Source of the DNA: Candidatus Bipolaricaulota bacterium
Lineage (GTDB): Bacteria; Bipolaricaulota; Bipolaricaulia; UBA7950; UBA9294
Assembly: GCA_040752575.1 (NCBI GenBank)
Contig: JBFMGK010000067.1
Location: 1,931-65,930, forward strand
Direction of reading: 5' to 3'
DNA length: 64,000 nt
Of this stretch, positions 2,578 through 64,000 are shown piece by piece (positions within the stretch are counted from its first letter, which is position 1; each line of letters opens with the position of its first letter). The translations under genes were made by a program, and so were the position numbers. The notes under the pieces were generated by a model. The model was given only the letters and a program-made list of their open reading frames with translations. It ran no database searches and was not told the origin of the DNA.

Positions 2578-3214
2578 GGCGCACCCCGCGGCGAAGCCAC
2601 AGCAACACGGCTGCCGACGCGACGGCAAGCATCGGCGTCCCTACGGCAAGAAGAGACTCCCACGCGGCGGCGCCGGCGAGCATCCGGCGCGCCGCGCCAA
2701 CGGGCGAGATCAGGGGAGCTCCCACGAGGGGAACCGCGATCCAGGCGAACAAGAACAGCCACACGGCCCCGGTTGCCCCGCGGATGCCCGCCGCAGCCAA
2801 CGCCAACCATGCCATGGCGAGCGACACCAGCCCCGAGATACAGAGCACGAGTCCGACGGACGCGAAGTCGCCCGAGAACACGGCAACCGAGTAGGCGAGA
2901 TACGGGAGACAGGCCACCTCGCCCAGCGCGACGCCGAGCGCGGCGTGAGAGAGGGCCCTTCGCGTCGGGCCTGCCGATGCGGCAACCGCCGTCCCCACCC
3001 ACCGTCCGAACAGCGCGGTGGCGAAGACCAGGACGTCGAAGAACAAGAAGGACAAGTCGAGCCCGATGGTCCGCGCGAGGCCGCTGGCCGACGTGAGATC
3101 GCCGACCGCTGTCGCGGCGGGGATCGAGAGAAGGAGCGCCAACCCACAGGCCGCAGAGAGATCCAAGACAGGCCTCCAGAGCTCGCTGTGGAAGGCGCCT
3201 TCGAACCTAGCCAC
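2567..3214 (-). CDS. hypothetical integral membrane protein (5–6 TM)
   Basis: 215 aa, very hydrophobic (A/L/G/V-rich helices). Short overlaps with both neighbours suggest translational coupling. No recognisable catalytic motif. Confidence 0.5.
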   Translation of the reverse strand: MARFEGAFHSELWRPVLDLSAACGLALLLSIPAATAVGDLTSASGLARTIGLDLSFLFFDVLVFATALFGRWVGTAVAASAGPTRRALSHAALGVALGEVACLPYLAYSVAVFSGDFASVGLVLCISGLVSLAMAWLALAAAGIRGATGAVWLFLFAWIAVPLVGAPLISPVGAARRMLAGAAAWESLLAVGTPMLAVASAAVLLWLRRGVRHAT

Positions 3215-8520: not shown

Positions 8521-9566
8521 GCCTTGCCTCCCACTTTCACGCGCGGGTCGAGGAACCCGTAGATCAGATCGAGAAACGCCAGCCCTAGGATGTAGAGCCC
8601 GGTCGTCAGCGAGAGGTTCCCCATCAAGACGGGAATGTCGTTCTGCTGCACCGACTGCCAGTACAGGCTGCCCATTCCGGGCCAACTGAAGATGCCCTCG
8701 AAGATGATCGCGCCGAAGATCGATCCGAGCAAACCGAGCACCGACATCGTGACGATCGGCGGCGCCGACGACCGCAAGGTGTGCCCGAACAGCACGCGCC
8801 GCTCAGAGATGCCGCGCGCGCGCGCCGACATGATGAAATCCTCCTGCAGCGTCCCAAGCACGATGTTGCGCGTGATGTAGGCGATGCCCCAGAAGCCGAG
8901 CACGACGAGCGTTGCGACGGGGAGGACCATGTGATAGAGCAGGTCGAGCGTGTAGGCGAATCCTTCCGGCGGCGGCGTCGAGTGCATCGACCCCGACGGG
9001 AAGATCGGCAGGACAAACGCGAACAGCATAATGAACAGCATCCCGAGCCACCACGCCGGCATCCCGAACACGACCATCGTCCCGATCGACGTCGTGCGGT
9101 CCATGAGTCCGCCGGCCTTGCGCGCCTTGCGCAGCCCGAGCCAGACCCCGAACACGATGTCGAACACCGAGACGGTCGCGAACAACAGCATCGTACGCGG
9201 AATGCGCTCGGTGACGATCCTCAGCACGTCCTGCTCACCGGTCATCGCCCGGATGATGGTCGATTGGCCGTAGCGGAAGGTGATCGTGTCGATGGCGCGC
9301 CAGAAAATGCGGCTCAACATCGGCTCGTCGAGGTGGTACATGGCCGTCAGCTCGGCGCGCCGGCTCTCCTGCCAGACGAGCAGGGCGTTCGGATCTCGAC
9401 CGATCGTGGTCTGAAGCGCCCGCGACTCGCCACGCACGATCTCGACGATCTGCGCCCGCATCGTGCGGTCGGCGACGGCGTTGAACAGGGCCGAGAAGAT
9501 GAACACGATGACTGCGAAGATCAGGAAGGCCCAAACCAAGCGGCGAACCGCGTACTTCCAGTACAT
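8517..9566 (-). CDS. oppB: oligopeptide ABC transporter permease (OppB/DppB-like)
   Basis: 349 aa. N-terminal TM followed by a periplasmic loop. Conserved permease motif region ARARGISERRVLFGHTLR. Confidence 0.9.
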   Translation of the reverse strand: MYWKYAVRRLVWAFLIFAVIVFIFSALFNAVADRTMRAQIVEIVRGESRALQTTIGRDPNALLVWQESRRAELTAMYHLDEPMLSRIFWRAIDTITFRYGQSTIIRAMTGEQDVLRIVTERIPRTMLLFATVSVFDIVFGVWLGLRKARKAGGLMDRTTSIGTMVVFGMPAWWLGMLFIMLFAFVLPIFPSGSMHSTPPPEGFAYTLDLLYHMVLPVATLVVLGFWGIAYITRNIVLGTLQEDFIMSARARGISERRVLFGHTLRSSAPPIVTMSVLGLLGSIFGAIIFEGIFSWPGMGSLYWQSVQQNDIPVLMGNLSLTTGLYILGLAFLDLIYGFLDPRVKVGGKA

Positions 9567-9700
9567 GGCGCTCCCATCTCCTTTCTGTCTCGTGCAACAA
9601 GGCGGGCGGTGCCGGCGCCAAGGCGCTTGACACCGCCCGCCCCCCTAATGCCTAGTCCTTCCTTGGGTCTCCGAGCCTGCGCTCGGCCGCCTCTCCAAGA

Positions 9701-12226
9701 CTACTGAAGCAGCAGCGTCGCGCCGGAGGCCGTCGGGAGGCCGCCGCCCGCGGGCTCGGCCACGGCGACGATGGTGTACGCGCCGCCACCCAGACCGGCC
9801 GTGACGGAGCCGGGAATGACCACTTCGAACTGCCCGGCCGACTTCAACGTCGCCACAATCGTCGTCTCGCCGGCGGGCCCGACAAAGATCAACGACACGG
9901 CGGCCTTCGTCGCCGGCTCAAACACGTCGTACGGATAGAGGCCCTCGCTCGCCAGGATCGTGATCGTCACGTTCTGGCCGGCTTGCGCCGCGAGCGGGGT
10001 GACGACGTCGTCGACGCGCGTCACGCCGGTCTCAAACTCGTCGAGCCAGTACTGCGCGCTCCACGGGTAGCTTGGGTCGCGGTTCGCCTTCAGCGAGATC
10101 TGGCTGTTCGCCGGATCCACCGAGTCGATGTAGTACGGGCCGTTCGAGATGTAGGCGTGGCCATGGGCATCGATGAAGTCGATCGCGCTCTGGTACATCG
10201 CGGCGAGATCGTCGGCCGTCGCCCCGACCTCGGGAAGGAGCGGCGCGAGATACACGGGCACGAACTTCTGGTCGCGCATCTCGACGAGCTTCGCGCGGAT
10301 GTCCGAGACGATCGAGCGGACGAGCACGTCCACCTGCGTCACGCCGGTGGCCTGGGTGAACCCGTAGACCGTCCCCGACTCGCCGCCCTCGGCGACGAGC
10401 TTGCCCAACGCCTCGATGATCGTCCACTTCACGCCCTGACCGTGGTTCGACGCCCGCGGCCAGAAGGTCGGCGCGCCGGACGCCCCGACGCGGTCGAGGT
10501 CGGGCGGGAAGTTGTTGTCAAAGTAGGTCGTGATCTTCGCGTTGGCGAAGTCCCACACCGAACCATGCGTATACGCAAAGCCGGGCAGAATGGCCGACGA
10601 GATCCCCGAGTCGAAGTACGGGTCGCCCTCGTAGTCCTCGACCGCCCAGTCGGTCAGGAACCCCTCGGCCTGCGCGAAGTCGAGCAGCGAGGTCTCGCTG
10701 CCATCGTGGAAATTCGCGAGCTGGAACGTGTAGTCGGCCTTCGCCCAGGCGGCTTCGCCGGCGGTCGAGACCCAGGCCTTAGCGGTCGAGTCCCACTCCA
10801 CGGCGTTCGCCGGGGCGGCGAGCTGGCCTACCGCCGTGCCGTCGTCGGCAAACTCGACGTCGACCACGACGTTGCTCCACGACGAGATCACGGGCGTGTA
10901 GGCCGCGGATCCCGGAGCGGTCGTCGTGTTCGGGTCGGTGGTGTTCGTGATGATGTTCGCCGCGTAGGCGTCGTTGAACCCCTGCGTCCCCACGGGATCC
11001 CAGGCGTTCAGGAACAGCGAGCCGCGCGCCGAGAACTGCGACACGACCACGGGTCGCGTCTTGTTTGTCGGGACCATCGAGATCATGGTGTCGCGGTTGA
11101 GCCCATCGCCGAGACCGTAGAGGAAGCGGGTCTCAAACGCGGCCTTGTTCGCGGCGTAGTACGCGAAGTCGTGCTGCTGGTAGATGCGGACGGCCTCGGT
11201 CAGTCCCGCGGCGACGGACTTGGACATGAGCTCCCAGTACTCGTCGACCGTCTCGAACTGCCCATAAATGATCGCCTGCGTCCACGCGTCGAGCTCGGGG
11301 TGCTGGTAGTTCCACCAGGAGCTCTCTCCGATGCCCGGCATGTTCGTGTACCACGGCGCGTACATCTGCACGACGTCGACGTCCTTCCACAGGGACGTGC
11401 CGCCGGCGAGCCACCCCTCGGTGTAGATGTTCCAGAGGTAGTCAGCCGGGTCGGTCAGGTAGACGTCGCTGATGCATCGAGTGCGGTCCACTTCGACGTT
11501 GTTCACGACGAAGCCCGCCTGGCGAAGCTGGTCAGCAATTCGCCGGCCCATCGGGAGACGGACGTTCGGATCGTCGACGCGGATGTAGAAGTTGATCTCG
11601 ACGGGCGCGCCGTCGAACGTCCAGATGCCGTCGCCGCCGCGGGCGAGCCGACCGACGTTCTCGGGCAGCGCCGCCGCCGCGTTCATCGCGTCGTCGATCA
11701 TCTGGTAGGCCTTCGCCTGGTCGCCTTCCGGCGTCAGGCCGAGCTTCTGCGCCTCGAGATAGAGCTTGAAGGCGCCCGGCTCGAAGCTGCCGACCGAAAT
11801 GATGGACGGGCTCCCCGCGCCCTGCATGATCTCCTCAACCATCTGCTGCCGGTTGAGCAGGAAGTGCAGCGCAAAGCGAAGCTCGCGAATCGCGAACGGG
11901 TTGAACTTCTCTTCGCCGCTCGTCGTCACGGCGATGTACGGCGCCGCGTTCGGATACGGGTTCAAGAACAGGCTCTCCGAGGACGCCGGAACGACGTACA
12001 GCTCGAGCTTGTCGAGCGTCGCCTGGTCGAGTCCGAAGATCACGCTTCCCGCGGTCGTGTACTGGAAGATGTCGATGTTGCCGGCCGCGACGTCCTGAAG
12101 GGCGATTTCCTCCTGCATGCGGACGTTGTACAGAATGCCGTCCGCGAAGGGGCCCACCTGGGCGAGGCCCAGGCCGCTCAGGGCGCCGACAAGAAGCACC
12201 ACGCTAAGTACACTGCGTAGCCTCAT
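9701..12226 (-). CDS. ABC transporter substrate-binding protein, family 5 (peptide/nickel type) with a ~250 aa C-terminal extension
   Basis: Start placed at MRLRSVLSVVLLVG (signal peptide), preceded by a GGGAGGA RBS 10 nt upstream. SBP_bac_5-like core. The extra C-terminal beta-rich domain ends ...GGGAYTIVAVAEPAGGG. Confidence 0.85.
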   Translation of the reverse strand: MRLRSVLSVVLLVGALSGLGLAQVGPFADGILYNVRMQEEIALQDVAAGNIDIFQYTTAGSVIFGLDQATLDKLELYVVPASSESLFLNPYPNAAPYIAVTTSGEEKFNPFAIRELRFALHFLLNRQQMVEEIMQGAGSPSIISVGSFEPGAFKLYLEAQKLGLTPEGDQAKAYQMIDDAMNAAAALPENVGRLARGGDGIWTFDGAPVEINFYIRVDDPNVRLPMGRRIADQLRQAGFVVNNVEVDRTRCISDVYLTDPADYLWNIYTEGWLAGGTSLWKDVDVVQMYAPWYTNMPGIGESSWWNYQHPELDAWTQAIIYGQFETVDEYWELMSKSVAAGLTEAVRIYQQHDFAYYAANKAAFETRFLYGLGDGLNRDTMISMVPTNKTRPVVVSQFSARGSLFLNAWDPVGTQGFNDAYAANIITNTTDPNTTTAPGSAAYTPVISSWSNVVVDVEFADDGTAVGQLAAPANAVEWDSTAKAWVSTAGEAAWAKADYTFQLANFHDGSETSLLDFAQAEGFLTDWAVEDYEGDPYFDSGISSAILPGFAYTHGSVWDFANAKITTYFDNNFPPDLDRVGASGAPTFWPRASNHGQGVKWTIIEALGKLVAEGGESGTVYGFTQATGVTQVDVLVRSIVSDIRAKLVEMRDQKFVPVYLAPLLPEVGATADDLAAMYQSAIDFIDAHGHAYISNGPYYIDSVDPANSQISLKANRDPSYPWSAQYWLDEFETGVTRVDDVVTPLAAQAGQNVTITILASEGLYPYDVFEPATKAAVSLIFVGPAGETTIVATLKSAGQFEVVIPGSVTAGLGGGAYTIVAVAEPAGGGLPTASGATLLLQ

Positions 12227-55946: not shown

Positions 55947-57002
55947 TTAGTCGCTCCCGCGACTCTCCGCCGGGAAGTCCGCGCCGCCCTGCAGGTCGAT
56001 CTCGCCGGACTCTCCCGTCGTTCCACGGAGCACAAGCCCGCGAACGCCATCCACGCGAAGCAGAGCGTAGTCGGGATCCTCCGCGCCTCCCGGCCAATCG
56101 TCTCGCCACTCCTCGCGCCAGGCCCGTCGCGTGCGCGCGACGTCCGGCTCGAGGACGGCGCGGCCATGGAGCGAGGCGTAGTTGAACCTCTCGTTGTCGA
56201 CGAATAGGAGCGTTACTTGCGGGTGGGCTGCTACCTGCGCGACCTTCTGCGAACTTCGGGATGTGGGGAACCACAGCGTGGCTCCCTCGCGATCGACAAT
56301 CCTCATCGGCCGCGCGGTCGGGAAACCGTCCTCACCCAGGGTCACCAGCAAAGGAAACGTCATCGCATTGACCACGGCCCAGAAGGCCTCCGAGGCGCTC
56401 TCGCGGCTTTTCGGTGCCGGGTCCGGGGTCTGAATGATGTCGGCTCCGTCGATGGAGAACGAATGAACCACGCGGTCGACAAGCTCCGTGCGGACGAGGA
56501 GCACCGCCACGGCGGTCGACTGCAGAACCCGGCGAAGCGTCGCTGCATGCCCTCCACCGTCCAGTTCCCAGCGACCGATCTCGTCCACGACGACGACCTC
56601 CGCCTTGTCAAGGGCCCCTTGCAGTGCCCGGCGCGCGAACTCCAACCCGCTCTCTCGGACGAAGAAGCGACCCACGGGGATTCCCGGGGGAGAGGTGCGG
56701 GCGAAGGGCACGTCTTCGCCGCTCATCAGATCCAGCGCGTTGTACCCCGTGGTCTGCCCGCGATCGAGGAGGCGCGGCGCAAGCACCCCCCCGACCGGCG
56801 TTCCGTTCGCGCGGAGTTGCTGCACCAATCGCAGAGCGGCGGCCGTCTTCCCCGCCCCGATCTCCCCCGCGAGGATCACCGCGCGCCCGGGGCGCCGCCC
56901 CCGGTCGCCACGGAGTTGGTTCAGCACGGCAGCGTAGAGATCGGAGTCCAGGGCGTCTCTCCACGCGTTGCGGCGCTTCGGCGCGTGCGGCGAGGGATTC
57001 AA
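55947..57002 (-). CDS. fusion protein: THEP1/NTPase_1-like P-loop NTPase plus PNPOx-like FMN-binding split-barrel domain
   Basis: N-terminal domain with P-loop AGEIGAGKT and Walker B VVVDEIGRWE. C-terminal ~150 aa has the pyridoxamine-5'-phosphate-oxidase-like / general stress protein 26 pattern. ATGA overlap with the upstream PLP-enzyme gene. Confidence 0.6.
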   Translation of the reverse strand: MNPSPHAPKRRNAWRDALDSDLYAAVLNQLRGDRGRRPGRAVILAGEIGAGKTAAALRLVQQLRANGTPVGGVLAPRLLDRGQTTGYNALDLMSGEDVPFARTSPPGIPVGRFFVRESGLEFARRALQGALDKAEVVVVDEIGRWELDGGGHAATLRRVLQSTAVAVLLVRTELVDRVVHSFSIDGADIIQTPDPAPKSRESASEAFWAVVNAMTFPLLVTLGEDGFPTARPMRIVDREGATLWFPTSRSSQKVAQVAAHPQVTLLFVDNERFNYASLHGRAVLEPDVARTRRAWREEWRDDWPGGAEDPDYALLRVDGVRGLVLRGTTGESGEIDLQGGADFPAESRGSD

Positions 57003-58474
57003 CGCGAGAGCTCCTTCAGCAGGCCGACGTCATCGTTGAACGATGCGATGGCTTCGTCGATCGCCGGGACCATCTCGTGGATTCGCTCCCAGTAGCCGGG
57101 GAAATCGTTCCACTGAGCGTTGAGTTCTTCGACGGACCTCCCCATCTGCTCCACCCACGTGAAGTACTTCAGCTGATGGATCCGTCGGCGATCCGCCTGA
57201 CGGAGTTCCAGAACGTGGTCAGTGCCCTGCCCGCGCAGTCGGGCGTGGAAGTCGAGGACGGCATTGCGCTCCGCGTACGGTCCGTGCAAGGCGTCCAGCT
57301 CGGCGATACGCGTGCGATAGAGCTCCATCGAGTCGGTCATCACGGTGAGGACAATGTCGCCGGCTCCGAGTTCGTAGTACTTCGCGAACTTGATCGCGGA
57401 CAGAAGATTCGCAACGCTGGAGATGCCCAACAGGTCGAGTTGCTCAACCAGGGGTTCCGGGACGCCTTCGCGAACGAGGAATTGCCTTCCAAGAGGCTCG
57501 TTGAACAGGCGGAGGAGCGCCATCGCATCGTCATCGTCGATGGCCATGACCATGTCGGTGTTTCGCACGTTGTGGATCCAAGGAATATGCTTGTCTCCGA
57601 TTCCCTCGATACGGTGCGCGCCGAAGCCGTTCTCCAACAGCGTGGGACACTGCAGCGCTTCCGAGACGGCCAACTTGCTCGCCGGGAACCGCTGCTTCAG
57701 GAAGTCCCCGCAGCCGGTCGTTCCGGCCGATCCCGAGGTCAGGACGACGCCGGCGTAGCTGCCCCGATGCCCCTGCGCCTCGATAACGTCGGCCATGGCG
57801 TGGCCGGTCACGTCGTAGTGCCAAAGGTGGTTTCCCGGTTCGTCGAATTGGTTGAAGATGTAGACGTTCTCGCGCGTTGCCTGGAGTTCCTTGCACTTCT
57901 GGAAGATCTCCCAGACATTCGACTCGGATCCCGGCGTGGCGATGACTTCACCTGCAACCTGCGACAGCCACTCGAACCGCTCGCGCGACATCCCCTGCGG
58001 GAGGATGGCGATGGACTCGCAGGCCAACAGGTTCGCGTCGTAGGCTCCGCCGCGGCAGTAGTTTCCCGTCGAGGGCCAGACGGCCTTGTGGAAGGTCGGG
58101 TCGAACTGACCGGTGACGAGCCTTGGAACCAAGCAGCCAAACGTAGCGCCCACTTTGTGCGCTCCCGTGGGGAACCACTTTCCGACGAGCGCGATGATCC
58201 GCGCAGGCACCCCCGTAAGCTCCTCCGGGAACTCGAGGGTATTGACGCCGCCGAATCCGCCGCCTCGCTGGACGGGCTCGTTCTTCCACGTGATGCGGAA
58301 CAGGTTCAGCGGATGGAGATCCCACAGGCCGATGGCGGCGAGACGCTCGACGATGGCGGGGGGAATCTGCGCCGGTTCCTTCATCTGCGCGAACGTGGGG
58401 ATGATGATCCCCCTCTCGCGCGCCCGTCGAACGGCCCGCTCCCTTGGTTCACGTCGCACCTCTAGATCGATCAT
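56999..58474 (-). CDS. fold-type II (TrpB-like) PLP-dependent enzyme
   Basis: Start at MIDLEVRREP with GAGGGAGG 6 nt upstream. TrpB-type lysine motif PTGAHK. Glycine-rich phosphate loop TSGSAGTTG. ~490 aa with N- and C-terminal extensions beyond a minimal TrpB/CysK core. Confidence 0.65.
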   Translation of the reverse strand: MIDLEVRREPRERAVRRARERGIIIPTFAQMKEPAQIPPAIVERLAAIGLWDLHPLNLFRITWKNEPVQRGGGFGGVNTLEFPEELTGVPARIIALVGKWFPTGAHKVGATFGCLVPRLVTGQFDPTFHKAVWPSTGNYCRGGAYDANLLACESIAILPQGMSRERFEWLSQVAGEVIATPGSESNVWEIFQKCKELQATRENVYIFNQFDEPGNHLWHYDVTGHAMADVIEAQGHRGSYAGVVLTSGSAGTTGCGDFLKQRFPASKLAVSEALQCPTLLENGFGAHRIEGIGDKHIPWIHNVRNTDMVMAIDDDDAMALLRLFNEPLGRQFLVREGVPEPLVEQLDLLGISSVANLLSAIKFAKYYELGAGDIVLTVMTDSMELYRTRIAELDALHGPYAERNAVLDFHARLRGQGTDHVLELRQADRRRIHQLKYFTWVEQMGRSVEELNAQWNDFPGYWERIHEMVPAIDEAIASFNDDVGLLKELSR

Positions 58475-58592: not shown

Positions 58593-59963
58593 GTGCAGGC
58601 TGAGCTCGCCATACGCGGGGGCACCGTCGTCACGCCGTGGGCGGCGTTCACGTCGGACGTCGCGATCGAAGGTGGACGTATTGCGGCCGTCGGAGACCAC
58701 CAGCGAGGGCGGCGCGAGATCGACGCCACGGGGATGCTCGTCCTGCCGGGAGCGATCGACGCGCACACACACATGGCCGCCCCCGTGGCCGGTCAACGCT
58801 CAAGCGACGACTTCCTTTCGGGATCGCGTGCCGCGGCGAGCGGCGGCGTCACGACAATCATCGACTTCACGGCAGGCTCTCCCGAACGTTCGATTCCCGA
58901 GGCGATCGAGGCGCGCGAACGCGATGCCGCACCCTGTATTGTTGACTACGCTTTGCACGGAGAGGTCGTGGGATGGACGCCCGGTCGCGAAAGCGAGTTC
59001 GGGGACGCGGTCGAGCTCGGGGTGGCGAGCTTCAAGTTCTACACAACGTATGAGTCGTCTGGGTTGAGGACGCCGCCGGACATCATGGCGCCTGCCTTCC
59101 GTGAGCTGGCGTTTCTTGGCGCGATCGCCCTCGTGCACGCCGAAGACGAGGGGCTTCTGCGCTCCATGGCCGCCCGGCTGAACGAAGCGGACCGCGGCCG
59201 CATGGCGACGCTGGCCGAGGCTCGCCCGGATCTGGCCGAAGCCGCCGCCATTTCTCAGGTCGGACGTCTGGCCCGCGACGCAGGCTGTCGACTCCACATC
59301 GTCCATGTGAGCTCGGCAGCAGGCCTCAGCGCCGTTCGCGCCGCGCGCGCTGCAGGCGGCCGGCTCACGGCCGAGACGTGCCCGCAGTATCTCCTGCTCA
59401 CGCGCGATGTGTACGACCTGCCCGACGGACACCTCTTCGCCGTCATGCCGCCGCTGCGACGCGCGGAGGACCGTCGCACTCTCTGGTCCGGACTCGCGCG
59501 GCGCGACCTGGACTTCGTGGCCACGGATCACTGCCCGTTCACCCGCGCGCAGAAGGCGTGGAGAGGAGCGTTCGACCTCGTAGCCTACGGCCTTCCGGGA
59601 GTCGAGACGCTTCTGCCTCTCCTGTTCTCGGAGGGTGTCGCCAAGGGACGTCTCGCCTTGCCCGACGTCGTACGTCTTCTTGCCGAGGGACCGGCGAGAA
59701 CCTACGGCCTCTACCCCGCGAAGGGGAGCCTCGAGGTGGGCGCCGATGCCGATGTCGTGTTGTTCGATCCGGCTGCCGCGTGGACGATCCGGGCGAGCGA
59801 TCTCCATATGGAAACCGACTTCTCGCCGTATGAGGGCTTCGGAGTCACGGGCCGTGTCGTCCGAACCCTCTCGAGAGGCGAAGAGATCTTCCGGGACGGC
59901 GAGATCGTCGCCTCCGCCGGGCGGGGCCACCGTGTGCACACGAAGCCCCTCGAGGTTTTGTGA
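58593..59963 (+). CDS. D-hydantoinase / dihydropyrimidinase-family cyclic amidohydrolase
   Basis: GTG start with GGGAAGGGAA upstream. Metal ligands IDAHTH. Carbamylated-lysine context SFKFYTTY, plus VHAED, HIVHVSS and ATDHCPF. The ORF-track N-terminal extension is rejected. Confidence 0.85.
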   Translation: MQAELAIRGGTVVTPWAAFTSDVAIEGGRIAAVGDHQRGRREIDATGMLVLPGAIDAHTHMAAPVAGQRSSDDFLSGSRAAASGGVTTIIDFTAGSPERSIPEAIEARERDAAPCIVDYALHGEVVGWTPGRESEFGDAVELGVASFKFYTTYESSGLRTPPDIMAPAFRELAFLGAIALVHAEDEGLLRSMAARLNEADRGRMATLAEARPDLAEAAAISQVGRLARDAGCRLHIVHVSSAAGLSAVRAARAAGGRLTAETCPQYLLLTRDVYDLPDGHLFAVMPPLRRAEDRRTLWSGLARRDLDFVATDHCPFTRAQKAWRGAFDLVAYGLPGVETLLPLLFSEGVAKGRLALPDVVRLLAEGPARTYGLYPAKGSLEVGADADVVLFDPAAAWTIRASDLHMETDFSPYEGFGVTGRVVRTLSRGEEIFRDGEIVASAGRGHRVHTKPLEVL

Positions 59964-60018: not shown

Positions 60019-60727
60019 GGTGCGCTTTCAGAGAGTCCAGCCGAGGAAGGTTTCGGCTATCGCCGCGGAGCAGATCCTCGCCGCGATCGAGCGCGGCGAT
60101 TACCCCGTTGGCAGCCGCCTACCCTCGGAGTTCGATCTGGCGCTCCAGATGGGCGTGAGTCGCCCGTCGATCCGCGAGGCGCTCTCCGCCCTCCAAGCCA
60201 TGGGCGTTGTCGAATCGAAGCCGGGAAGCGGGAACTACATCCTGCGCACCGCTTCGACGGCCGACCAGTTCCATGCCGTCGGACTGATGGAGAGCGAAGC
60301 CAGTTGTCTCGAGGTGATGGACGCCCGGGGCGCGCTCGAACCGGCCGTGGCGGCCCTCGCAGCGCAGAAGGCCGACGAGTCCGCCGTTGTACGGCTTAGG
60401 GAAGCCATTGAACGCATGCGGCAACTCGCGGCAGCGAACGACTTTGAGGCGTACTTCGAGGCAGATCGAGCTTTCCACGAGGAGCTGTCCGCCGGTTCGG
60501 GGAATCCGCTCATCGCATCGGCGCTCGCTCCCCTGATCGCGACGATGGGACAGACCGTCTACCGGAAGTTCACGAGGCACTACTACCTCAAGAATGTGAG
60601 CGATCTCCAGCACGTGGTCGACCTCCATCAGGAGATCCTCGATGCCGTGGAGAAAGCTGACGCCGAAACCGCGCGGGCGAAGATGGAGGAACACTGGGCG
60701 CGCATGCGCGAGATCTGGGAAGCGTAG
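60019..60727 (+). CDS. GntR-family (FadR/FCD subfamily) transcriptional regulator
   Basis: N-terminal winged HTH (LPSEFDLALQMGVSRPSIREAL) and C-terminal all-helical FCD domain. The start is either the GTG at 60019 after GAGGAGGAAG, or the GTG at 59960 overlapping the hydantoinase stop. Confidence 0.8.
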
Positions 60728-60735
60728 TGGAGAGG

Positions 60736-60817
60736 CGGCAGCCCCTGTGCCTGCCGCAGATCGAGAGAGGATGGGGCGGCAGTCCCTGTGCCTGCCGCAG
60801 ATCGAGAGAAAGGATGA
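60736..60817 (+). repeat. tandem direct repeat (2 × ~40 bp) with internal palindrome upstream of arcC
   Basis: GCGGCAG[C/T]CCCTGTGCCTGCCGCAGATCGAGAGA(G/AA)GGATG(G/A) occurs twice, head to tail. Each copy contains the inverted repeat CGGCAG-N9-CTGCCG and a GAGAGRGG-ATG translation-initiation-like segment. Confidence 0.7.
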
Positions 60818-60821
60818 TGGG

Positions 60822-61775
60822 ATGGCGAGCGAGAAGCAGCTGGTCGTCGTTGCCCTGGGCGGGAATGCCATTCTCCAGCCCGGGCAGCGCGGAACCTTCG
60901 AAGAGCAGATGAAGAACGTCCACCTGACTTGCGAGCAGTTGGCGCACATGGTGGAGTCCGGACGTTACCGAGTCGTGGTGACCCACGGCAACGGGCCGCA
61001 GGTGGGCAACATCCTGCTGCAGAACGAGGTCGGCAAGGAGGTCGCCGCGCCGATGCCGCTGTTTGTCTGCGGAGCCGAGAGCCAGGGGCTTATCGGGTTC
61101 ATGATCCAGCAGAACCTGAGCAACCTTCTTGCCGCCAAAGGGCGCGCGGACATCCCGGTAGCCACCCTGGTAACCCAGGTTGTCGTCGACGCAGACGACG
61201 AAGCCTTCCGTCACCCGACCAAGCCCGTGGGGCCGTTCTACACAGCCGAAGAAGCGAAGCGATTGAGCGAAGAGAAAGGTTACGACGTCAAGGAGGACGC
61301 GGGTCGCGGCTGGCGTCGGGTCGTTGCGTCTCCAGATCCGAAGGAGATCTTCGAGAAGGAGGCCATCCGGCAACTCATTGCCGCTCGCGCGATCGTCATT
61401 GCCTCGGGAGGAGGCGGGATCCCCGTCGTCCGCGAGGACGGGCAATTGCGGGGCGTCGACGCGGTCATCGACAAGGACCTTGCGGGCGAACGGCTTGCCG
61501 CGGATGTCGGCGCATCCATTTTCATGATCCTGACCGACGTCGAGCAGGCGAAGCTCCACCACCGCACGCCGCAGGAGAAGGCGCTCAGCCGCCTCACCGT
61601 GCGCGAGGCGAGTCAGTACCTCGCCGAGGGGCACTTTGCCAAGGGGTCCATGGAGCCGAAGGTCCGCGCCGCGGTCCGTTTCGTCGAGTCGGGAGGAGAG
61701 AAGGCCATCATCACCTCGCTCGACAAGGCCACCGACGCCTTGGAGGGCAAGGCGGGCACGACCATCACACGATAG
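60822..61775 (+). CDS. arcC: carbamate kinase
   Basis: MASEKQLVVVALGGNAI (carbamate-kinase N-terminus). AAK-fold motifs VVTHGNGPQVG and IASGGGGIPV. 317 aa from this start. An in-frame ATG 51 nt upstream lies inside the first repeat copy. Confidence 0.85.
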   Translation: MASEKQLVVVALGGNAILQPGQRGTFEEQMKNVHLTCEQLAHMVESGRYRVVVTHGNGPQVGNILLQNEVGKEVAAPMPLFVCGAESQGLIGFMIQQNLSNLLAAKGRADIPVATLVTQVVVDADDEAFRHPTKPVGPFYTAEEAKRLSEEKGYDVKEDAGRGWRRVVASPDPKEIFEKEAIRQLIAARAIVIASGGGGIPVVREDGQLRGVDAVIDKDLAGERLAADVGASIFMILTDVEQAKLHHRTPQEKALSRLTVREASQYLAEGHFAKGSMEPKVRAAVRFVESGGEKAIITSLDKATDALEGKAGTTITR

Positions 61776-61806: not shown

Positions 61807-62844
61807 ATGTCCAACACCACTCTGAGAGGGCGAGACTTCATCACCTGGCTCGAATTCACGCGCGACGAACTCGAGGCCATGCTGGATACCGCCCACGACC
61901 TGAAGCGGAAGTTCATCCGCCGCGAGCCTCACAAGGTTCTCGACGGCCAGACGCTCCACATGCTCTTCTACAACACGTCCCTGCGGACGCGCAACTCGTT
62001 TGAGGCGGCCATGACGCAGCTCGGCGGGCACGCCCACTTCCTCCAGTCCGACGCCGTCTACACGCCGGCGCTGAAGGGAGACGAGAAGGCCTACAAGACC
62101 GAGCGGATCAGCGACGTTGCCCGCGTATTGGCGGAGATGGGAGATGCCATTGCCATCCGCATCTACGGGAAGTACACCGACTGGAAGTACGGCAAGGGCA
62201 ACCAGATGATCCGCGAGTTCGCGCGCTGGTCAAAGGTCCCGGTGATCAATATGGAAGACGACATGTTCCATCCGTGCCAGGACCTTGCCGACGTCATGAC
62301 CATGCAGGAGAAGCTCGGCCACGACCTCCAGGGCAAGAAGTTCGTGATGAGCTGGGCGTATTCTGGTTCGGTGGAGAAGCCGCTCGCCGTGCCGCAGAGC
62401 TGCATCGTCGCCGCGGCGACCATGGGCATGGACGTTACGCTCGCGCACCCGAAGGGCTTCGATCTTGATCCCAAGGTTGTGCAAGCCACGAAGGATCTTG
62501 CCAAGAAGCACGGCGGCGGATTCAGGATCCTGAACGACATGGAGGAGGCCTTCAAGGGCGCCCACGTCGTGTACCCGAAGGCGTGGACGGTGCAGCCGAC
62601 CGACGGCAAGACGCCGATGGACGCGGAGAAGGCGAAGGCGCTCTTCGAAGCCAACAAACACTGGATCACGACGCAGGAGAAGATGAAGCTCACGAACGAC
62701 GCGATCTACATGCATTGTCTGCCTGCGGACCGAGACATGGAGGTGACCGACGAGGTCATCGACGGCCCCAACTCGGTGATCATCGAGCAGGCAGCCAATC
62801 GGCTGCACGGCCAGAAGGGTATGATGGCCTGCATCATGGCCTAG
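61807..62844 (+). CDS. YgeW-like divergent carbamoyltransferase (aspartate/ornithine carbamoyltransferase superfamily)
   Basis: Carbamoyl-phosphate motifs SLRTR (STRTR-like), HPCQ and HCLP. The second-substrate loop is MSWAYSG rather than OTC SMG. 345 aa. Confidence 0.8.
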   Translation: MSNTTLRGRDFITWLEFTRDELEAMLDTAHDLKRKFIRREPHKVLDGQTLHMLFYNTSLRTRNSFEAAMTQLGGHAHFLQSDAVYTPALKGDEKAYKTERISDVARVLAEMGDAIAIRIYGKYTDWKYGKGNQMIREFARWSKVPVINMEDDMFHPCQDLADVMTMQEKLGHDLQGKKFVMSWAYSGSVEKPLAVPQSCIVAAATMGMDVTLAHPKGFDLDPKVVQATKDLAKKHGGGFRILNDMEEAFKGAHVVYPKAWTVQPTDGKTPMDAEKAKALFEANKHWITTQEKMKLTNDAIYMHCLPADRDMEVTDEVIDGPNSVIIEQAANRLHGQKGMMACIMA

Positions 62845-62916
62845 GCGGGGGAAGGGGCTGCAGAGGGTCGGACGTTGCCGGATCCTCTGCGGCCCCCAGG
62901 TCCGAAGGGAGGTCAC

Positions 62917-63942
62917 ATGAGTTGGTTCGATCTCGCAGGGCGAGACCTGATCGGGGAGACGGACTGGACTCGCGAGGAGTACAACATCGCGATGAAGGTC
63001 ACCGATCAGCTCAAAGGGGCTTACTACAGCAGGCTTCCTCACCCAACCCTGCAGTACAAGACGTTTGCCATGTTGTTCTTCGCGGGCTCGACGCGAACGC
63101 GGATGTCGTTCGAGACGGCGATGACCCAACTCGGAGGGCACGCCCAGTTCATCGACCCGAAGACCATGCGCCTCTCGCTCGAGGACAAGCCGGGCGCCGG
63201 CGAGACCGTCAAGGACACGGCGGAAGCCATGGAACGCTACTGCGACGGCGTCGGCATTCGGCTCCTCGACGACGCCATCCAGCGATACGGCGAGGCGGAC
63301 GAGGTGATGCAGAAGTTCGCAAAACACTGCCGCGTGCCGATCATCAACATGGCGTCCGACATCTACCACCCGTGCCAATCGCTGACCGACATCTACACGA
63401 TGCACGAGAAGCTTGACGCGGACGTGAAGGGGAAGAAGATCGTGATCATGTGGGCCTGGTCGCCATGGATCCGCGGCTGGTGCTCGGTGCAGGGCACGGC
63501 GCTGATCTCGTCGATGTACGGGATGGACGTCGTCGTGGCGAACCCGCCCGAGTACGACCTCGACCCGAAGATCATGAAGGAGTGCCGCGATCTGGCTACG
63601 GCATCGGGCGGCTCGTTCGAGATCTCGCACGACCTGGACAAGGCGCTTGACGGCGCGACGGTCGTCTTCCCGCGCAACTGGTTCACCAAGGACCGCTACG
63701 CACTGGGAAAGGACAAAGAGGCGGAGATCGCGAAGAAGTACGCGAACTGGAAGTACTCGAGCGAGCGACAGAAGAAACTCGGGGCCCCAGGCTATCTCCT
63801 GCAGTGCATGCCCGTGGATCGCGGCAACGAGGCCGACGCCGAGGTCTGCGACAATCGCCTCTCGTGGATCCTCGATCAGGCGGAGAATCGCCTTCACACG
63901 CAGAAGGCCATTCTTACGCTGACGATGGGAGGACGTCTGTAG
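62917..63942 (+). CDS. YgeW-like divergent carbamoyltransferase, paralog 2
   Basis: Start at MSWFDLAGRDL with GGGAGG upstream. STRTR, HPCQ and a QCMP (HCLP-position) motif. Second-substrate loop IMWAWSPW. 341 aa, alignable with the preceding gene. Confidence 0.8.
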   Translation: MSWFDLAGRDLIGETDWTREEYNIAMKVTDQLKGAYYSRLPHPTLQYKTFAMLFFAGSTRTRMSFETAMTQLGGHAQFIDPKTMRLSLEDKPGAGETVKDTAEAMERYCDGVGIRLLDDAIQRYGEADEVMQKFAKHCRVPIINMASDIYHPCQSLTDIYTMHEKLDADVKGKKIVIMWAWSPWIRGWCSVQGTALISSMYGMDVVVANPPEYDLDPKIMKECRDLATASGGSFEISHDLDKALDGATVVFPRNWFTKDRYALGKDKEAEIAKKYANWKYSSERQKKLGAPGYLLQCMPVDRGNEADAEVCDNRLSWILDQAENRLHTQKAILTLTMGGRL

Positions 63943-64000
63943 TGGCGGGGGGCGGCTTGACGAATCTCGGCGCGGCGATCCCTAGGCCGGACGCCGTCGA

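What the first reader, a model, noticed from the sequence alone, without database searches (positions are those of the whole stretch)
61807..63942. Tandem paralogous transcarbamylases with non-canonical second-substrate loops
Both proteins keep the carbamoyl-phosphate-binding motifs STRTR and HPCQ. The first keeps HCLP; the second has QCMP at that position. Both replace the ornithine-binding SMG loop of OTC. One has MSWAYSG and the other IMWAWSPW. Two adjacent divergent copies suggest either a hetero-oligomeric enzyme or two related substrates. Neither motif matches the OTC, ATC or PTC signatures I can recall.
Basis: partly seen in the sequence, partly recalled or inferred. Interest (0 to 1): 0.6.

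Follow-up and report, generated by a model that had tools for sequence, protein, structure and literature searches.

The report
Paired carbamoyltransferases for anaerobic purine breakdown
Two adjacent, distantly related enzymes in an uncultured Bipolaricaulota bacterium probably each remove one urea-like group from a uric-acid breakdown product and convert it into ATP, which would be a more energy-efficient version of an anaerobic purine pathway first described in 2025.

Summary
The two ORFs are real: TC1 at 61807-62844 and TC2 at 62917-63942, 37% identical to each other. Most of the reported motifs are present, but TC1 has SLRTR, not STRTR. The 'MSWAYSG/IMWAWSPW' strings lie in the proline-rich loop of knotted transcarbamylases, not in the OTC SMG loop.

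Neither protein is an OTC, PTC, ATC, AOTC, SOTC or YgeW orthologue. TC1 passes NCBIfam's AOTCase cutoff but has none of the AOTCase discriminator residues. Both predicted structures superpose best on knotted AOTCase.

The genes sit in a conserved Bipolaricaulota operon: CysK-like PLP enzyme | HyuA-like hydantoinase, GntR, carbamate kinase, TC1, TC2, xanthine-dehydrogenase Mo subunit. Related loci add SsnA-like, UacX-like, true YgeY and true YgeX genes. This makes it a variant of the reductive uric acid (2,8-dioxopurine) pathway.

The TC2-type/TC1-type pair recurs in an unrelated low-GC lineage. In Thermococcus-type loci a true YgeY occupies the TC1 slot instead.

Best reading: these are two separate catabolic enzymes, not a hetero-oligomer. 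TC2 would fill the YgeW role on 2,3-diureidopropionate. TC1 would replace the hydrolase YgeY on the mono-ureido product. Both would feed carbamate kinase, giving 2 ATP per purine. Substrates are inferred, not shown.

The parts
61807..62844 (+). TC1: 345-aa knotted-type carbamoyltransferase. Its signature is SLRTR, INMEDD-HPCQ, MSWAYSGSV(E/A)KPLAVPQS, YPKAW and HCLPADR. Proposed mono-ureido-diaminopropionate carbamoyltransferase, a phosphorolytic substitute for YgeY.
   Evidence: ORF and domains. Family conservation. AF2 model pLDDT 91.7, best fold match AOTCase at TM 0.89. Site mapping. Context.
62917..63942 (+). TC2: 341-aa knotted-type carbamoyltransferase. Its signature is STRTR, INMAS-HPCQ, W(A)(Y/W)(S/T)PW, FPR(N/G)W and (Q/H)(C/V)MP. 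Proposed 2,3-diureidopropionate carbamoyltransferase, filling the YgeW role.
   Evidence: Start codon. Family conservation. AF2 model pLDDT 91.9, best fold match AOTCase at TM 0.88 and rmsd 1.9. Relatives and their contexts.
60822..61775 (+). Carbamate kinase, which would convert carbamoyl phosphate + ADP to ATP.
   Evidence: TIGR00746 arcC scores 430.9 bits against a cutoff of 358. It is 49% identical to E. coli YqeA. It lies directly upstream of TC1 in nearly all related loci.
60020..60727 (+). GntR/FCD-family transcription regulator of the operon. The likely start is GTG 60020; the ORF opens at 59960.
58593..59963 (+). HyuA-like D-hydantoinase/dihydropyrimidinase, proposed to open the ring of ureidomethyl-hydantoin to give 2,3-diureidopropionate.
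   Evidence: TIGR02033 scores 398 bits against a cutoff of 393. It is 41% identical to E. coli HyuA over 455 aa. Start codon.
56999..58474 (-). CysK-like PLP enzyme of about 491 aa (the ORF extends to 58519). It is a conserved partner of the operon and is proposed to convert diaminopropionate (DAP) or a beta-substituted alanine to pyruvate.
   Evidence: PALP domain. Distant cysteine synthase matches. It is 56% identical over 489 aa to a PALP gene inside a canonical YgfK/SsnA/XdhD/YgeY cluster, L032.
55947..57002 (-). Fusion of NTPase_1/DUF2478 with a PNPOx-like flavoprotein. The two halves are separate genes in other genomes. Its role is unknown; it may be a Moco-related NTPase plus a reductase.
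63957..64000 (+). 5' end of a xanthine-dehydrogenase-family molybdopterin subunit (about 750 aa in relatives), cut by the window end.
   Evidence: The N-terminus LTNLGAAIPRPDAV matches L010's XDH. XDH follows TC2 in nearly every related locus. The best NCBIfam models are pucD/xdhB at 548 bits.
62854..62896 (+). GC-rich hairpin in the TC1-TC2 spacer. It is not conserved in relatives.
   Evidence: Inverted repeat. Free energy -41.8 kcal/mol, z -3.8. The spacers of relatives differ in length and sequence.

Best explanation
TC1 and TC2 are two separate catabolic carbamoyltransferases of the knotted (AOTCase/YgeW-like) structural class. They are encoded in a Bipolaricaulota operon for reductive purine (uric acid / 2,8-dioxopurine) degradation.

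Proposed sequence of steps:
1. The hydantoinase opens ureidomethyl-hydantoin to 2,3-diureidopropionate (DUPA).
2. TC2 phosphorolyses one ureido group of DUPA. This is the role YgeW plays in E. coli.
3. TC1 phosphorolyses the remaining ureido group of the mono-ureido-aminopropionate. This replaces the hydrolase YgeY.
4. Both carbamoyl phosphates go to the adjacent carbamate kinase, giving 2 ATP per purine instead of 1.
5. A PLP enzyme converts diaminopropionate to pyruvate and ammonia.

Shown: the fold class, intact carbamoyl-phosphate sites, family-specific second-substrate residues, the conserved operon, and recurrence of the pair in another lineage.

Inferred: the substrates, the order of the two steps, and the homo-oligomeric state.
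For: **Catalytic competence.**
- SxRTR, the beta4 Arg, HPCQ and the C-terminal NRLH Arg are invariant in both families.

**Fold.**
- Both AF2 models (pLDDT about 92) match knotted AOTCase best, with TM 0.88-0.90, against 0.82-0.83 for OTC.

**Operon.**
- PALP | HyuA-like or M20, GntR, CK, TC1, TC2, XDH is conserved in more than 50 Bipolaricaulota-type loci.

**Link to the reductive urate pathway.**
- L011, L013 and L015 add an SsnA-like gene and a DHO_dh+4Fe4S (UacX-like) gene.
- L011 and L016 add a true YgeY (511 bits against cutoff 321) plus a short YgeW-like TCase.
- L101 adds a true diaminopropionate ammonia-lyase (496 bits against cutoff 276).
- The window's PALP is 56% identical, and the relatives' XDH 38% identical, to genes in a canonical YgfK/SsnA/XdhD/YgeY/CK cluster, L032.
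- The pathway and the YgeW/YgeY/CK roles come from PMC12507026, bioRxiv 10.1101/2025.04.24.650524 and PMC12990295.

**Pair logic.**
- A low-GC lineage (L034, L035, L037, L038, L039, L045) has a TC2-type gene followed directly by a TC1-type gene that keeps all TC1 signature residues, then CK, SsnA-like and UacX-like genes.
- Thermococcus-type loci (L027, L033, L036) have a true YgeY in that same downstream slot.
- No locus has both in that slot.

**Link of TC1-type to diaminopropionate.**
- A 48%-identical TC1-type enzyme sits with SbnA-like and SbnB diaminopropionate-synthesis genes in L030. SbnB scores 374 bits against a cutoff of 327; SbnA scores 321 against 350.

**Active-site similarity to YgeW.**
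- TC1 keeps 5 of the 8 proposed YgeW second-substrate residues: S188, K191, K258, D308 and E312.
- TC2 keeps D and E, and has K-to-R swaps at the two Lys positions.
Against: - There is no biochemical evidence; the substrates rest on gene neighbourhood.
- No SsnA, UacX/YgfK or YgeX gene lies in this 64-kb window. The upper pathway must be elsewhere in the genome or be different here.
- Some Bipolaricaulota loci carry an extra ArgE/DapE-like M20 enzyme or a third or fourth TCase beside TC1 and TC2 (L003, L011, L074, L101). That is more ureido-cleaving enzymes than DUPA has ureido groups.
- The 'YgeY or TC1-type' replacement rests on 3 versus 6 loci.
- The grouping of TC2 with the Thermococcus clade has only 38% bootstrap support.
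- The two published studies disagree on which ureido group YgeW removes, so the regiochemistry cannot be transferred.
Confidence: 0.55

Rival explanations
1. Same pathway, opposite order. TC1 acts first on 2,3-diureidopropionate and TC2 removes the second ureido group. Alternatively, the two have overlapping regio- or stereo-specificities.
For: TC1 resembles YgeW more than TC2 does in the proline-rich loop and at 5 of 8 proposed substrate residues. It is also 37% identical to YgeW, against 30% for TC2.
Against: It is the TC2-type that pairs with YgeY in Thermococcus-type loci, and the TC1-type that occupies the YgeY slot elsewhere. In L011 the inserted YgeY + YgeW-like module sits beside TC1 + TC2 as a parallel pair. 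A TC1-type relative sits with diaminopropionate-synthesis genes.
Confidence: 0.15
2. TC1 and TC2 form an obligate hetero-trimer or hetero-hexamer with composite active sites, because transcarbamylase active sites borrow the 80's loop of the neighbouring subunit.
For: The two genes are strictly adjacent and co-occur throughout Bipolaricaulota and in a second lineage. Their 80's-loop residues differ: Y85/T86 in TC1 and R85 in TC2.
Against: Each type occurs without the other in other contexts, for example L027, L033, L036, L046-L050 and L065 for TC2-type and L030 for TC1-type. Gene order is reversed between lineages. An unrelated PDDEXK_3 gene or long spacers separate the two in several relatives. 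L001 keeps TC2 beside only an 88-aa OTCace-domain remnant in the upstream slot. Both proteins retain complete carbamoyl-phosphate sites.
Confidence: 0.1
3. The operon degrades another ureido compound, and the TCases act on that. Candidates are reductive pyrimidine catabolism (N-carbamoyl-beta-alanine and N-carbamoyl-beta-aminoisobutyrate) or another N-heterocycle hydroxylated by the XDH-family enzyme.
For: The hydantoinase passes the dihydropyrimidinase model. The UacX-like protein best matches PreA/PyrD models. The SsnA-like genes of L013 and L038 fall below the SsnA cutoffs. The window itself has no SsnA or YgeX gene.
Against: A xanthine-dehydrogenase-type Mo subunit follows TC2 almost universally. 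A true YgeY and a true diaminopropionate ammonia-lyase occur inside the same operon type (L011, L101). The PALP and XDH genes are orthologous to genes in a canonical SsnA/YgfK/YgeY cluster. Pyrimidine catabolism needs neither an XDH nor a beta-eliminating PLP enzyme.
Confidence: 0.12
4. TC1 is a genuine anabolic N-acetyl- or N-succinyl-ornithine carbamoyltransferase, as PGAP names it. TC2 is an odd OTC, and carbamate kinase supplies carbamoyl phosphate for arginine synthesis.
For: TC1 scores 319.9 bits against a cutoff of 288 on NF003384. AOTCase is its best PDB sequence and fold match. Some loci carry an ArgE/DapE-like M20 enzyme.
Against: The AOTCase discriminators E92, N185, K302 and W77 are T98, P192, E312 and T86 in TC1, and these are invariant in the family. 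The SOTCase succinyl-binding Arg (R278) is Asp in TC1. There are no arg genes nearby. The operon has a GntR regulator, a hydantoinase and an XDH. In the NJ tree TC1 groups outside the AOTC/SOTC clade. TC2 lacks DxxxSMG.
Confidence: 0.03

Closest known systems
YgeW (YTCase), the knotted carbamoyltransferase of the E. coli / Clostridium reductive uric acid (2,8-dioxopurine) pathway
   Same: It is a catabolic enzyme encoded next to a carbamate kinase, in clusters with HyuA, XDH-family, SsnA and YgeY/YgeX-type genes. TC1 shares the (M/I)(S/T)WAY..S..KPL(A/S)VPQ loop, HCLPAD, and the equivalents of S200, K203, K270, D334 and E344. TC2 is proposed to do the same reaction.
   Different: Identity is only 37% (TC1) and 30% (TC2). 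Both score far below the YgeW HMM cutoffs (179 and 107 bits against 453). Both lack YgeW's N- and C-terminal helices, its 120's insertion and its extended 240's loop (345/341 aa against 396 aa). Q98, D124 and Q160 are replaced by Y, Y and E in TC1 and by R, L and A in TC2.
N-acetyl-L-ornithine transcarbamylase (Xanthomonas campestris ArgF', PDB 3KZC and related entries) and N-succinylornithine transcarbamylase (Bacteroides fragilis)
   Same: It is the best structural match for both models (TM 0.88-0.90). Both share the extended 120's loop. TC1 keeps the equivalents of E144 and K252 and passes the NCBIfam AOTCase cutoff.
   Different: The AOTCase discriminators E92, N185, K302 and W77 are all absent. 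The SOTCase R278 equivalent is Asp. The context is catabolic (CK, XDH) rather than an arginine-biosynthesis cluster. The tree places them in separate clades.
YgeY, the M20 hydrolase that removes the second ureido group in the published pathway
   Same: TC1 is proposed to carry out the same pathway step. A TC1-type gene occupies the gene slot that YgeY occupies in Thermococcus-type loci.
   Different: The fold and chemistry are unrelated. YgeY hydrolyses the group to CO2 and NH3. TC1 would use phosphorolysis to make carbamoyl phosphate, which conserves energy.
Catabolic OTCase and PTCase with carbamate kinase (arginine and agmatine deiminase pathways)
   Same: The logic is the same: ureido group + Pi gives carbamoyl phosphate, which carbamate kinase converts to ATP.
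   Different: Those are unknotted enzymes that use a DxxxSMG or PTC-type 230's loop and act on different substrates. Only one transcarbamylase acts per pathway.
L-2,3-diaminopropionate transcarbamylase (DPTCase, viomycin/zwittermicin biosynthesis) and ureidoglycine carbamoyltransferase (Rxyl_2847)
   Same: DPTCase interconverts diaminopropionate and a ureido-alanine. UGTCase is a purine-catabolic TCase that is paired with a carbamate kinase.
   Different: DPTCase is unknotted and has HDLP and (T/S)RWQTTG. [quoted passage not shown] TC1 and TC2 have neither set of motifs.

Membership tests
Transcarbamylase superfamily | SxRT, HPxQ and HxLP motifs plus the beta4 Arg (carbamoyl-phosphate site) | tested here: met
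   TC1 has SLRTR, R118, HPCQ and HCLP. TC2 has STRTR, R115, HPCQ and QCMP, with H in 28 of 66 family members and Met always in place of Leu.; Pfam OTCace_N + OTCace.
Knotted transcarbamylases (AOTC/SOTC/YTC group) | Proline-rich loop and extended 120's loop (Shi et al. 2015, PMC4581275) | tested here: met
   TC1 has ...SGSVEKPLAVPQS and an AOTC-length 120's loop. TC2 has an extended 120's loop and a WSPWIRGW loop with only one Pro. Both models superpose best on AOTCase, with TM 0.88-0.90.
Knotted transcarbamylases (AOTC/SOTC/YTC group) | An actual trefoil knot in the chain | not testable with these tools
   The model coordinates are not exposed, so knot topology could not be computed.
N-acetylornithine transcarbamylase (AOTCase) | Curated HMM cutoff (NF003384, 288 bits) | tested here: met
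   TC1 scores 319.9 bits and passes. TC2 scores 221.2 bits and fails.
N-acetylornithine transcarbamylase (AOTCase) | Discriminator residues E92, N185 and K302, and W77 from the neighbouring subunit | tested here: not met
   TC1 has T98, P192, E312 and T86 (with Y85 adjacent), invariant in 120 homologues. TC2 has G95, G187, E305 and L86.
N-acetylornithine transcarbamylase (AOTCase) | Location in an arginine-biosynthesis gene cluster | tested here: not met
   The neighbours are a carbamate kinase, GntR, a hydantoinase, a PLP enzyme and XDH. No arg genes lie in the 64-kb window.
N-succinylornithine transcarbamylase (SOTCase) | A/S/P/V/Q, P and V/I/E at the three discriminator sites, plus succinyl-binding H176, R178 and R278 | tested here: not met
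   TC1 has T, P and E at the three discriminator sites (a partial match). The R278 equivalent, in HCLPxR, is D308. The H/R positions of the Pro-loop are S186 and S188. That mapping goes through the AOTCase alignment, because no SOTCase sequence was in hand.
YgeW / YTCase | Curated HMM cutoffs (NF005538 at 453 bits, TIGR03316 at 500 bits) | tested here: not met
   TC1 scores 178.6 and 165.9 bits. TC2 scores 106.5 and 101.4 bits.
YgeW / YTCase | Extra N- and C-terminal helices, extended 240's loop, and a short 80's loop with Gln98 | tested here: not met
   TC1 and TC2 are 345 and 341 aa against 396 aa for YgeW. The YgeW insertions are absent. The 80's loops are longer and carry Y85 (TC1) or R85 (TC2).
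YgeW / YTCase | Catabolic context next to a carbamate kinase in a urate-pathway cluster | tested here: met
   CK lies directly upstream. HyuA-like and XDH genes are in the operon. SsnA-like, UacX-like, YgeY and YgeX genes occur in related loci.
Ornithine transcarbamylase | DxxxSMG loop and curated HMM cutoffs | tested here: not met
   Neither protein has DxxxSMG. TIGR00658 scores 242.9 and 207.1 bits against a cutoff of 280.85.
Putrescine transcarbamylase | TIGR04384 cutoff (500 bits) and the PTC 230's-loop motif | tested here: not met
   The scores are 202.8 and 187.9 bits.
Aspartate transcarbamylase / UGTCase branch | RxQxER (ATCase), or HPTQ with H(T/S)LP/HPLA (UGTCase) | tested here: not met
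   ATCase models score 107-115 bits against cutoffs of 237-263. Both proteins have HPCQ, and HCLP or QCMP.
DPTCase / DBTCase | HDLP motif and (T/S)RWQ(T/S)(T/M)G loop | tested here: not met
   Both features are absent from TC1 and TC2.
Reductive uric acid (2,8-dioxopurine) pathway enzyme | Phosphorolysis of 2,3-diureidopropionate or of its mono-ureido product | not testable with these tools
   This requires enzyme assays. Only genomic association is available.

The most novel reading that the evidence does not exclude
Bipolaricaulota, and an unrelated low-GC thermophile-like lineage, run a fully phosphorolytic lower branch of reductive purine catabolism. Two previously unrecognised subfamilies of knotted carbamoyltransferases convert both ureido groups of 2,3-diureidopropionate into carbamoyl phosphate. 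The TC1-type is a non-homologous, energy-conserving replacement of the hydrolase YgeY. This would double substrate-level ATP yield to 2 per purine. Because the two specificities sit on separate enzymes, they would also give a direct handle on the unresolved question of which ureido group is removed first.
Probability: 0.45. Interest if true: 0.7.

Novelty: new variant of a known kind. Interest (0 to 1): 0.6.

Why it matters
- The reductive uric acid pathway was worked out only in 2025. Its lower branch, meaning the order of ureido cleavage and the energy yield, is still debated.
- A natural variant with two dedicated carbamoyltransferases would show that anaerobes in energy-poor habitats can extract two ATP per purine.
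- It would add two new substrate specificities to the transcarbamylase family.
- It would supply separate enzymes with which the regiochemistry question can be tested.
- It exposes a systematic misannotation. The NCBIfam AOTCase equivalog names the TC1 family 'N-acetylornithine carbamoyltransferase' and TC2 is named 'ornithine carbamoyltransferase'. Metabolic reconstructions of Bipolaricaulota MAGs would therefore wrongly infer arginine metabolism and miss purine fermentation.

Tried and rejected
- An exact look-up of TC1 found no contig on record, so the window's own downstream sequence could not be fetched. Close relatives were used instead (L010, whose TC2 is 95% identical to the window's).
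- tblastn with E. coli SsnA, YgfK, XdhD, YgeX and YgeY, and with the Bipolaricaulota SsnA-like, UacX-like and AFOR proteins, found nothing in the window.
- Pfam scans of 20 further window ORFs found only transporters and housekeeping genes.
- Deep phylogeny by NJ with 100 bootstraps is poorly resolved (TC2 + Thermococcus clade 38%, TC1 + YgeW 24%). Subfamily assignment therefore rests on motifs and context rather than on deep nodes.
- The contexts of some distant relatives were uninformative or biosynthetic (L028, L029, L031).
- Promoter and terminator scans gave counts near the shuffle expectation.
- The TC1-TC2 hairpin is strong locally but is not conserved in relatives.
- The UGTCase hypothesis (Rubrobacter Rxyl_2847) was considered early because of the high GC content and the carbamate kinase. 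It was rejected on motifs.
- Oxamate transcarbamylase was rejected because that activity is encoded by allFGH, which is not a TCase fold.
- Literature searches found no report of paired TCases or of this pathway in Bipolaricaulota.
Full report
**1. Observation**

Two same-strand ORFs with transcarbamylase domains lie at the stated coordinates.
- TC1 is 61807-62844 (345 aa), behind a GAAGGAG ribosome-binding site.
- TC2 is listed as a TTG ORF from 62875. All 120 closest homologues are 340-341 aa, and an ATG at 62917 follows GGGAGG, so the gene is 62917-63942.
- The two proteins are 37% identical.

Motif check:
- HPCQ is in both proteins. HCLP (TC1), QCMP (TC2), MSWAYSG (TC1) and IMWAWSPW (TC2) are all present.
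- TC1 has SLRTR, not STRTR. SLRTR is invariant in its family.
- The 'MSWAYSG/IMWAWSPW' strings are not in the SMG (240's) loop. They align with the loop that is proline-rich in knotted transcarbamylases.
- The Q of QCMP is a within-family variant of H: QCMP in 38 members, HCMP in 18 and HVMP in 10, out of 66. The constant oddity is Met in place of Leu.

**2. What the proteins are not**

Against NCBIfam, TC2 misses every curated cutoff. TC1 passes only the AOTCase equivalog, NF003384, with 319.9 bits against a cutoff of 288. PGAP accordingly names the TC1 family 'N-acetylornithine carbamoyltransferase' and TC2 'ornithine carbamoyltransferase'.

The published AOTCase discriminators are E92, N185 and K302, plus W77 from the neighbouring subunit (PMC4581275). 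In TC1 these positions are T98, P192, E312 and T86, and they are invariant in the family. The SOTCase succinyl-binding Arg in HCLPxR is Asp in TC1.

Neither protein has any of the following:
- DxxxSMG (OTCase)
- the PTCase loop
- RxQxER (ATCase)
- HDLP (DPTCase/DBTCase)
- HPTQ with H(T/S)LP (UGTCase)

The YgeW models score 179 bits (TC1) and 107 bits (TC2) against a cutoff of 453. YgeW's terminal helices and insertions are absent.

**3. What the proteins are**

Both AlphaFold models are confident, with pLDDT 91.9 and 91.7. Both superpose best on the knotted X. campestris AOTCase, with TM 0.88-0.90 and rmsd about 2 Å. P. furiosus OTC gives 0.82-0.83. All carbamoyl-phosphate ligands are conserved.

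I searched 1.84 billion 50%-identity cluster representatives with TC2 and tabulated motifs across the hits. Several distinct clades of knotted-type enzymes appear:
- **AOTC/SOTC clade:** LTWxxHPK and HCLPVRRN.
- **YgeW / short-YgeW clade:** N(L/M)Q.D, SWAYAxSxxKP(L/I)SVPQ and HxLPAD.
- **TC1 clade:** SLRTR, INMEDD, MSWAYSGSVxKPLAVPQS, YPKAW and HCLPADR.
- **TC2 clade:** NMAS, WAYSPW, FPRNW and (H/Q)xMP. Its relatives include Anaerolineae (55% identity) and Thermococcus sp. EP1/MV5 (45% identity).

In a bootstrapped NJ tree:
- the TC1 family has 100% support;
- TC2 plus the Anaerolineae relatives has 99%;
- TC1 groups with a soil-metagenome enzyme at 51%;
- TC1 falls outside the AOTC/SOTC clade;
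- deeper nodes are unresolved.

At the residues proposed to bind YgeW's second substrate:

| YgeW residue | TC1 | TC2 |
|---|---|---|
| S200 | S188 | gap |
| K203 | K191 | R186 |
| K270 | K258 | R253 |
| D334 | D308 | D301 |
| E344 | E312 | E305 |
| Q160 | E150 | A146 |
| D124 | Y120 | L117 |
| Q98 (adjacent subunit) | Y85 | R85 |

**4. Context**

The window ends 58 bases after the TC2 stop codon. Its last 44 bases open a gene whose N-terminus matches the xanthine-dehydrogenase Mo subunit that follows TC2 in relatives.

The local gene order is:
- an NTPase/PNPOx fusion and a roughly 490-aa CysK-like PLP enzyme on the minus strand;
- then, on the plus strand, a HyuA-like hydantoinase (41% identical to E. 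coli HyuA), a GntR regulator and a carbamate kinase (431 bits; 49% identical to YqeA);
- then TC1, TC2 and XDH.

This order recurs in more than 50 Bipolaricaulota-type loci from genomes and metagenomes.

Variants tie the operon to the reductive uric acid / 2,8-dioxopurine pathway, described in PMC12507026, bioRxiv 10.1101/2025.04.24.650524 and PMC12990295:
- L011, L013 and L015 add a HyuA-like gene, an SsnA-like amidohydrolase and a DHO_dh+4Fe-4S protein. The last resembles UacX, the C. difficile 2,8-dioxopurine (yanthine) reductase.
- L011 and L016 insert a true YgeY (511 bits against cutoff 321) plus a short YgeW-like TCase between TC1 and TC2.
- L101 adds a true diaminopropionate ammonia-lyase after XDH (496 bits against cutoff 276).
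- The canonical cluster L032 contains a YgfK-like gene, SsnA (490 bits against cutoff 444), an XdhD-like gene, YgeY, a short YgeW-like TCase and CK. It also contains a PLP enzyme 56% identical to the window's, and its XDH is 38% identical to the Bipolaricaulota XDH.

The rest of the window holds nothing purine-related.

**5. Why two enzymes**

A metagenome scan seeded with the Thermococcus-type sequences returned 80 loci.
- In a low-GC lineage (37-50% GC; L034, L035, L037, L038, L039, L045), a TC2-type gene is followed directly by a TC1-type gene. That gene is 46-52% identical to TC1 and keeps SLRTR, Y85, T98, Y120, EDD, K191, P192, K258 and D308. CK, SsnA-like and UacX-like genes follow.
- In Thermococcus-type loci (L027, L033, L036), the gene directly after the TC2-type gene is instead a true YgeY (466 bits against cutoff 321).
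- No locus has both in that slot.
- TC2-type genes also occur alone with CK, XDH with its FAD and Fe-S subunits, SsnA and HyuA (L046-L050, L065).
- A TC1-type enzyme (48% identical) sits with SbnA-like and SbnB diaminopropionate-synthesis genes in a biosynthetic cluster, L030. SbnB passes its cutoff and SbnA falls just below.

The simplest reading has four parts:
- The TC2-type does the YgeW job, which is the first ureido cleavage of 2,3-diureidopropionate.
- The TC1-type interconverts the mono-ureido compound and diaminopropionate. It is a phosphorolytic, non-homologous substitute for YgeY.
- In L011 the inserted YgeY + YgeW-like pair is then a second, parallel module.
- With the adjacent carbamate kinase, this would give two ATP per purine.

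**6. Rivals**

- **Reverse order of the two enzymes.** This remains possible, because TC1 looks more like YgeW.
- **Obligate hetero-oligomer.** This is disfavoured for three reasons: each type occurs alone, the gene order is reversed between lineages, and unrelated genes or variable spacers lie between the two.
- **A pyrimidine or other ureido substrate.** This is not excluded. The window lacks SsnA and YgeX, and the SsnA-like genes in L013 and L038 fall below the curated cutoffs.
- **An anabolic AOTCase/OTC role.** The discriminator residues and the gene context contradict this.

Extra M20 enzymes and a third or fourth TCase type in some loci (L003, L074, L082, L097, L101) show that the system is more varied than a simple two-step model.

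**7. Novelty and verdict**

Literature searches found no report of paired transcarbamylases in this pathway, nor of the pathway in Bipolaricaulota. The published neighbourhood survey counted any PF00185 protein as 'YgeW'.

I rate the pair as a new variant of a known kind. It consists of two uncharacterised subfamilies of knotted catabolic transcarbamylases in a YgeY-independent, probably doubly ATP-yielding version of reductive purine degradation. The substrates and the order of the two steps are inferred from sequence and gene neighbourhood only.

Noticed in passing
window 61807-62844 and homologues P0121-P0240: The NCBIfam AOTCase 'equivalog' NF003384 (cutoff 288 bits) scores the TC1 family at about 320 bits. 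PGAP and JGI therefore label these catabolic enzymes 'N-acetylornithine carbamoyltransferase', although none of the AOTCase discriminator residues is present. This is a systematic misannotation in Bipolaricaulota MAGs.
   Followed up: yes
window 56999-58474 (-); L032 7282-8796: A CysK-like PLP enzyme of about 490-505 aa matches only the generic PALP Pfam model, has no specific family model, and resembles cysteine synthases only distantly. It is conserved at 56% identity between this operon and a canonical YgfK/SsnA/XdhD/YgeY urate cluster. It may be an unrecognised component of the reductive urate pathway, for example a diaminopropionate or albizziin beta-lyase.
   Followed up: partly
window 55947-57002 (-); L004 3203-4121; L005 3890-4878: Here an NTPase_1/DUF2478 domain is fused to a PNPOx-like (weakly F420/FMN-type) flavoprotein. 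The same two genes are separate in other Bipolaricaulota, and in L005 they lie next to an XdhC-type Moco chaperone. The function is unknown.
   Followed up: no
L007 1544-1996; L009 ~2350-3290; L010 ~9170-10000; L017 ~750-1400; L024 ~180-680: In several close relatives a small PDDEXK_3-family gene is inserted between TC1 and TC2. In L009 it comes with repetitive sequence. The window has only a 72-nt spacer at that position.
   Followed up: partly
L011 7780-9964; L016 3-1893; L082 4998-5963; L097 4991-5971; L101 4995-5960: Some operons carry extra transcarbamylase types. One is a short YgeW-like 'TC3', adjacent to a true YgeY. Another, 'TC4', has Q85 and L150 and passes the OTC TIGR00658 cutoff (296 bits against 280.85) while keeping the Lys at the knotted-type K252 (TC1 K258) position.
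   Followed up: partly
window 60735-60816: The GntR-carbamate kinase spacer contains a tandem duplication of about 41 nt. Each copy carries the palindrome GCGGCAG-N9-CTGCCGC. These could be operator sites. The RNA fold is no better than that of shuffled sequence (z = +0.5).
   Followed up: partly
window 62854-62896: The TC1-TC2 spacer contains a strong GC-rich hairpin (-41.8 kcal/mol, z = -3.8) that leaves the TC2 Shine-Dalgarno sequence free. It is not conserved in relatives, whose spacers range from about 15 to more than 120 nt and carry other CCGCAG/CTGCGG palindromes.
   Followed up: yes
L011 541-2478; L013 and L015 821-4584: One or two tungsten-type aldehyde:ferredoxin oxidoreductase (AFOR) genes sit directly upstream of the SsnA-like and UacX-like genes in some Bipolaricaulota purine clusters. 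Their role is unknown.
   Followed up: no
L030 6456-14803: A soil-metagenome biosynthetic cluster contains SbnA-like and SbnB (diaminopropionate synthesis) genes, a PurA-like ligase, a TC1-type transcarbamylase, a ThrC-like PLP enzyme, a DAO-type oxidase and an adenylating enzyme. It probably makes a natural product containing ureido-diaminopropionate.
   Followed up: partly
L001 9615-12820 (complete genome CP070725.1): In this complete Bipolaricaulota genome the upstream TC1 slot holds only an 88-aa OTCace-domain fragment and the XDH gene is called at 568 aa. CK, GntR and PALP are absent nearby, while TC2 is intact. This looks like a decaying copy of the operon.
   Followed up: no
L003 6569-8827 and equivalents; window 63957-64000: The XDH-family gene after TC2 encodes only the Mo-binding subunit (hammerhead + MoCoBD1/2, about 750 aa). 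No adjacent 2Fe-2S or FAD subunit genes are present, unlike in L046-L050, L065 or E. coli XdhD/YgfM. Its electron partner is unknown.
   Followed up: no
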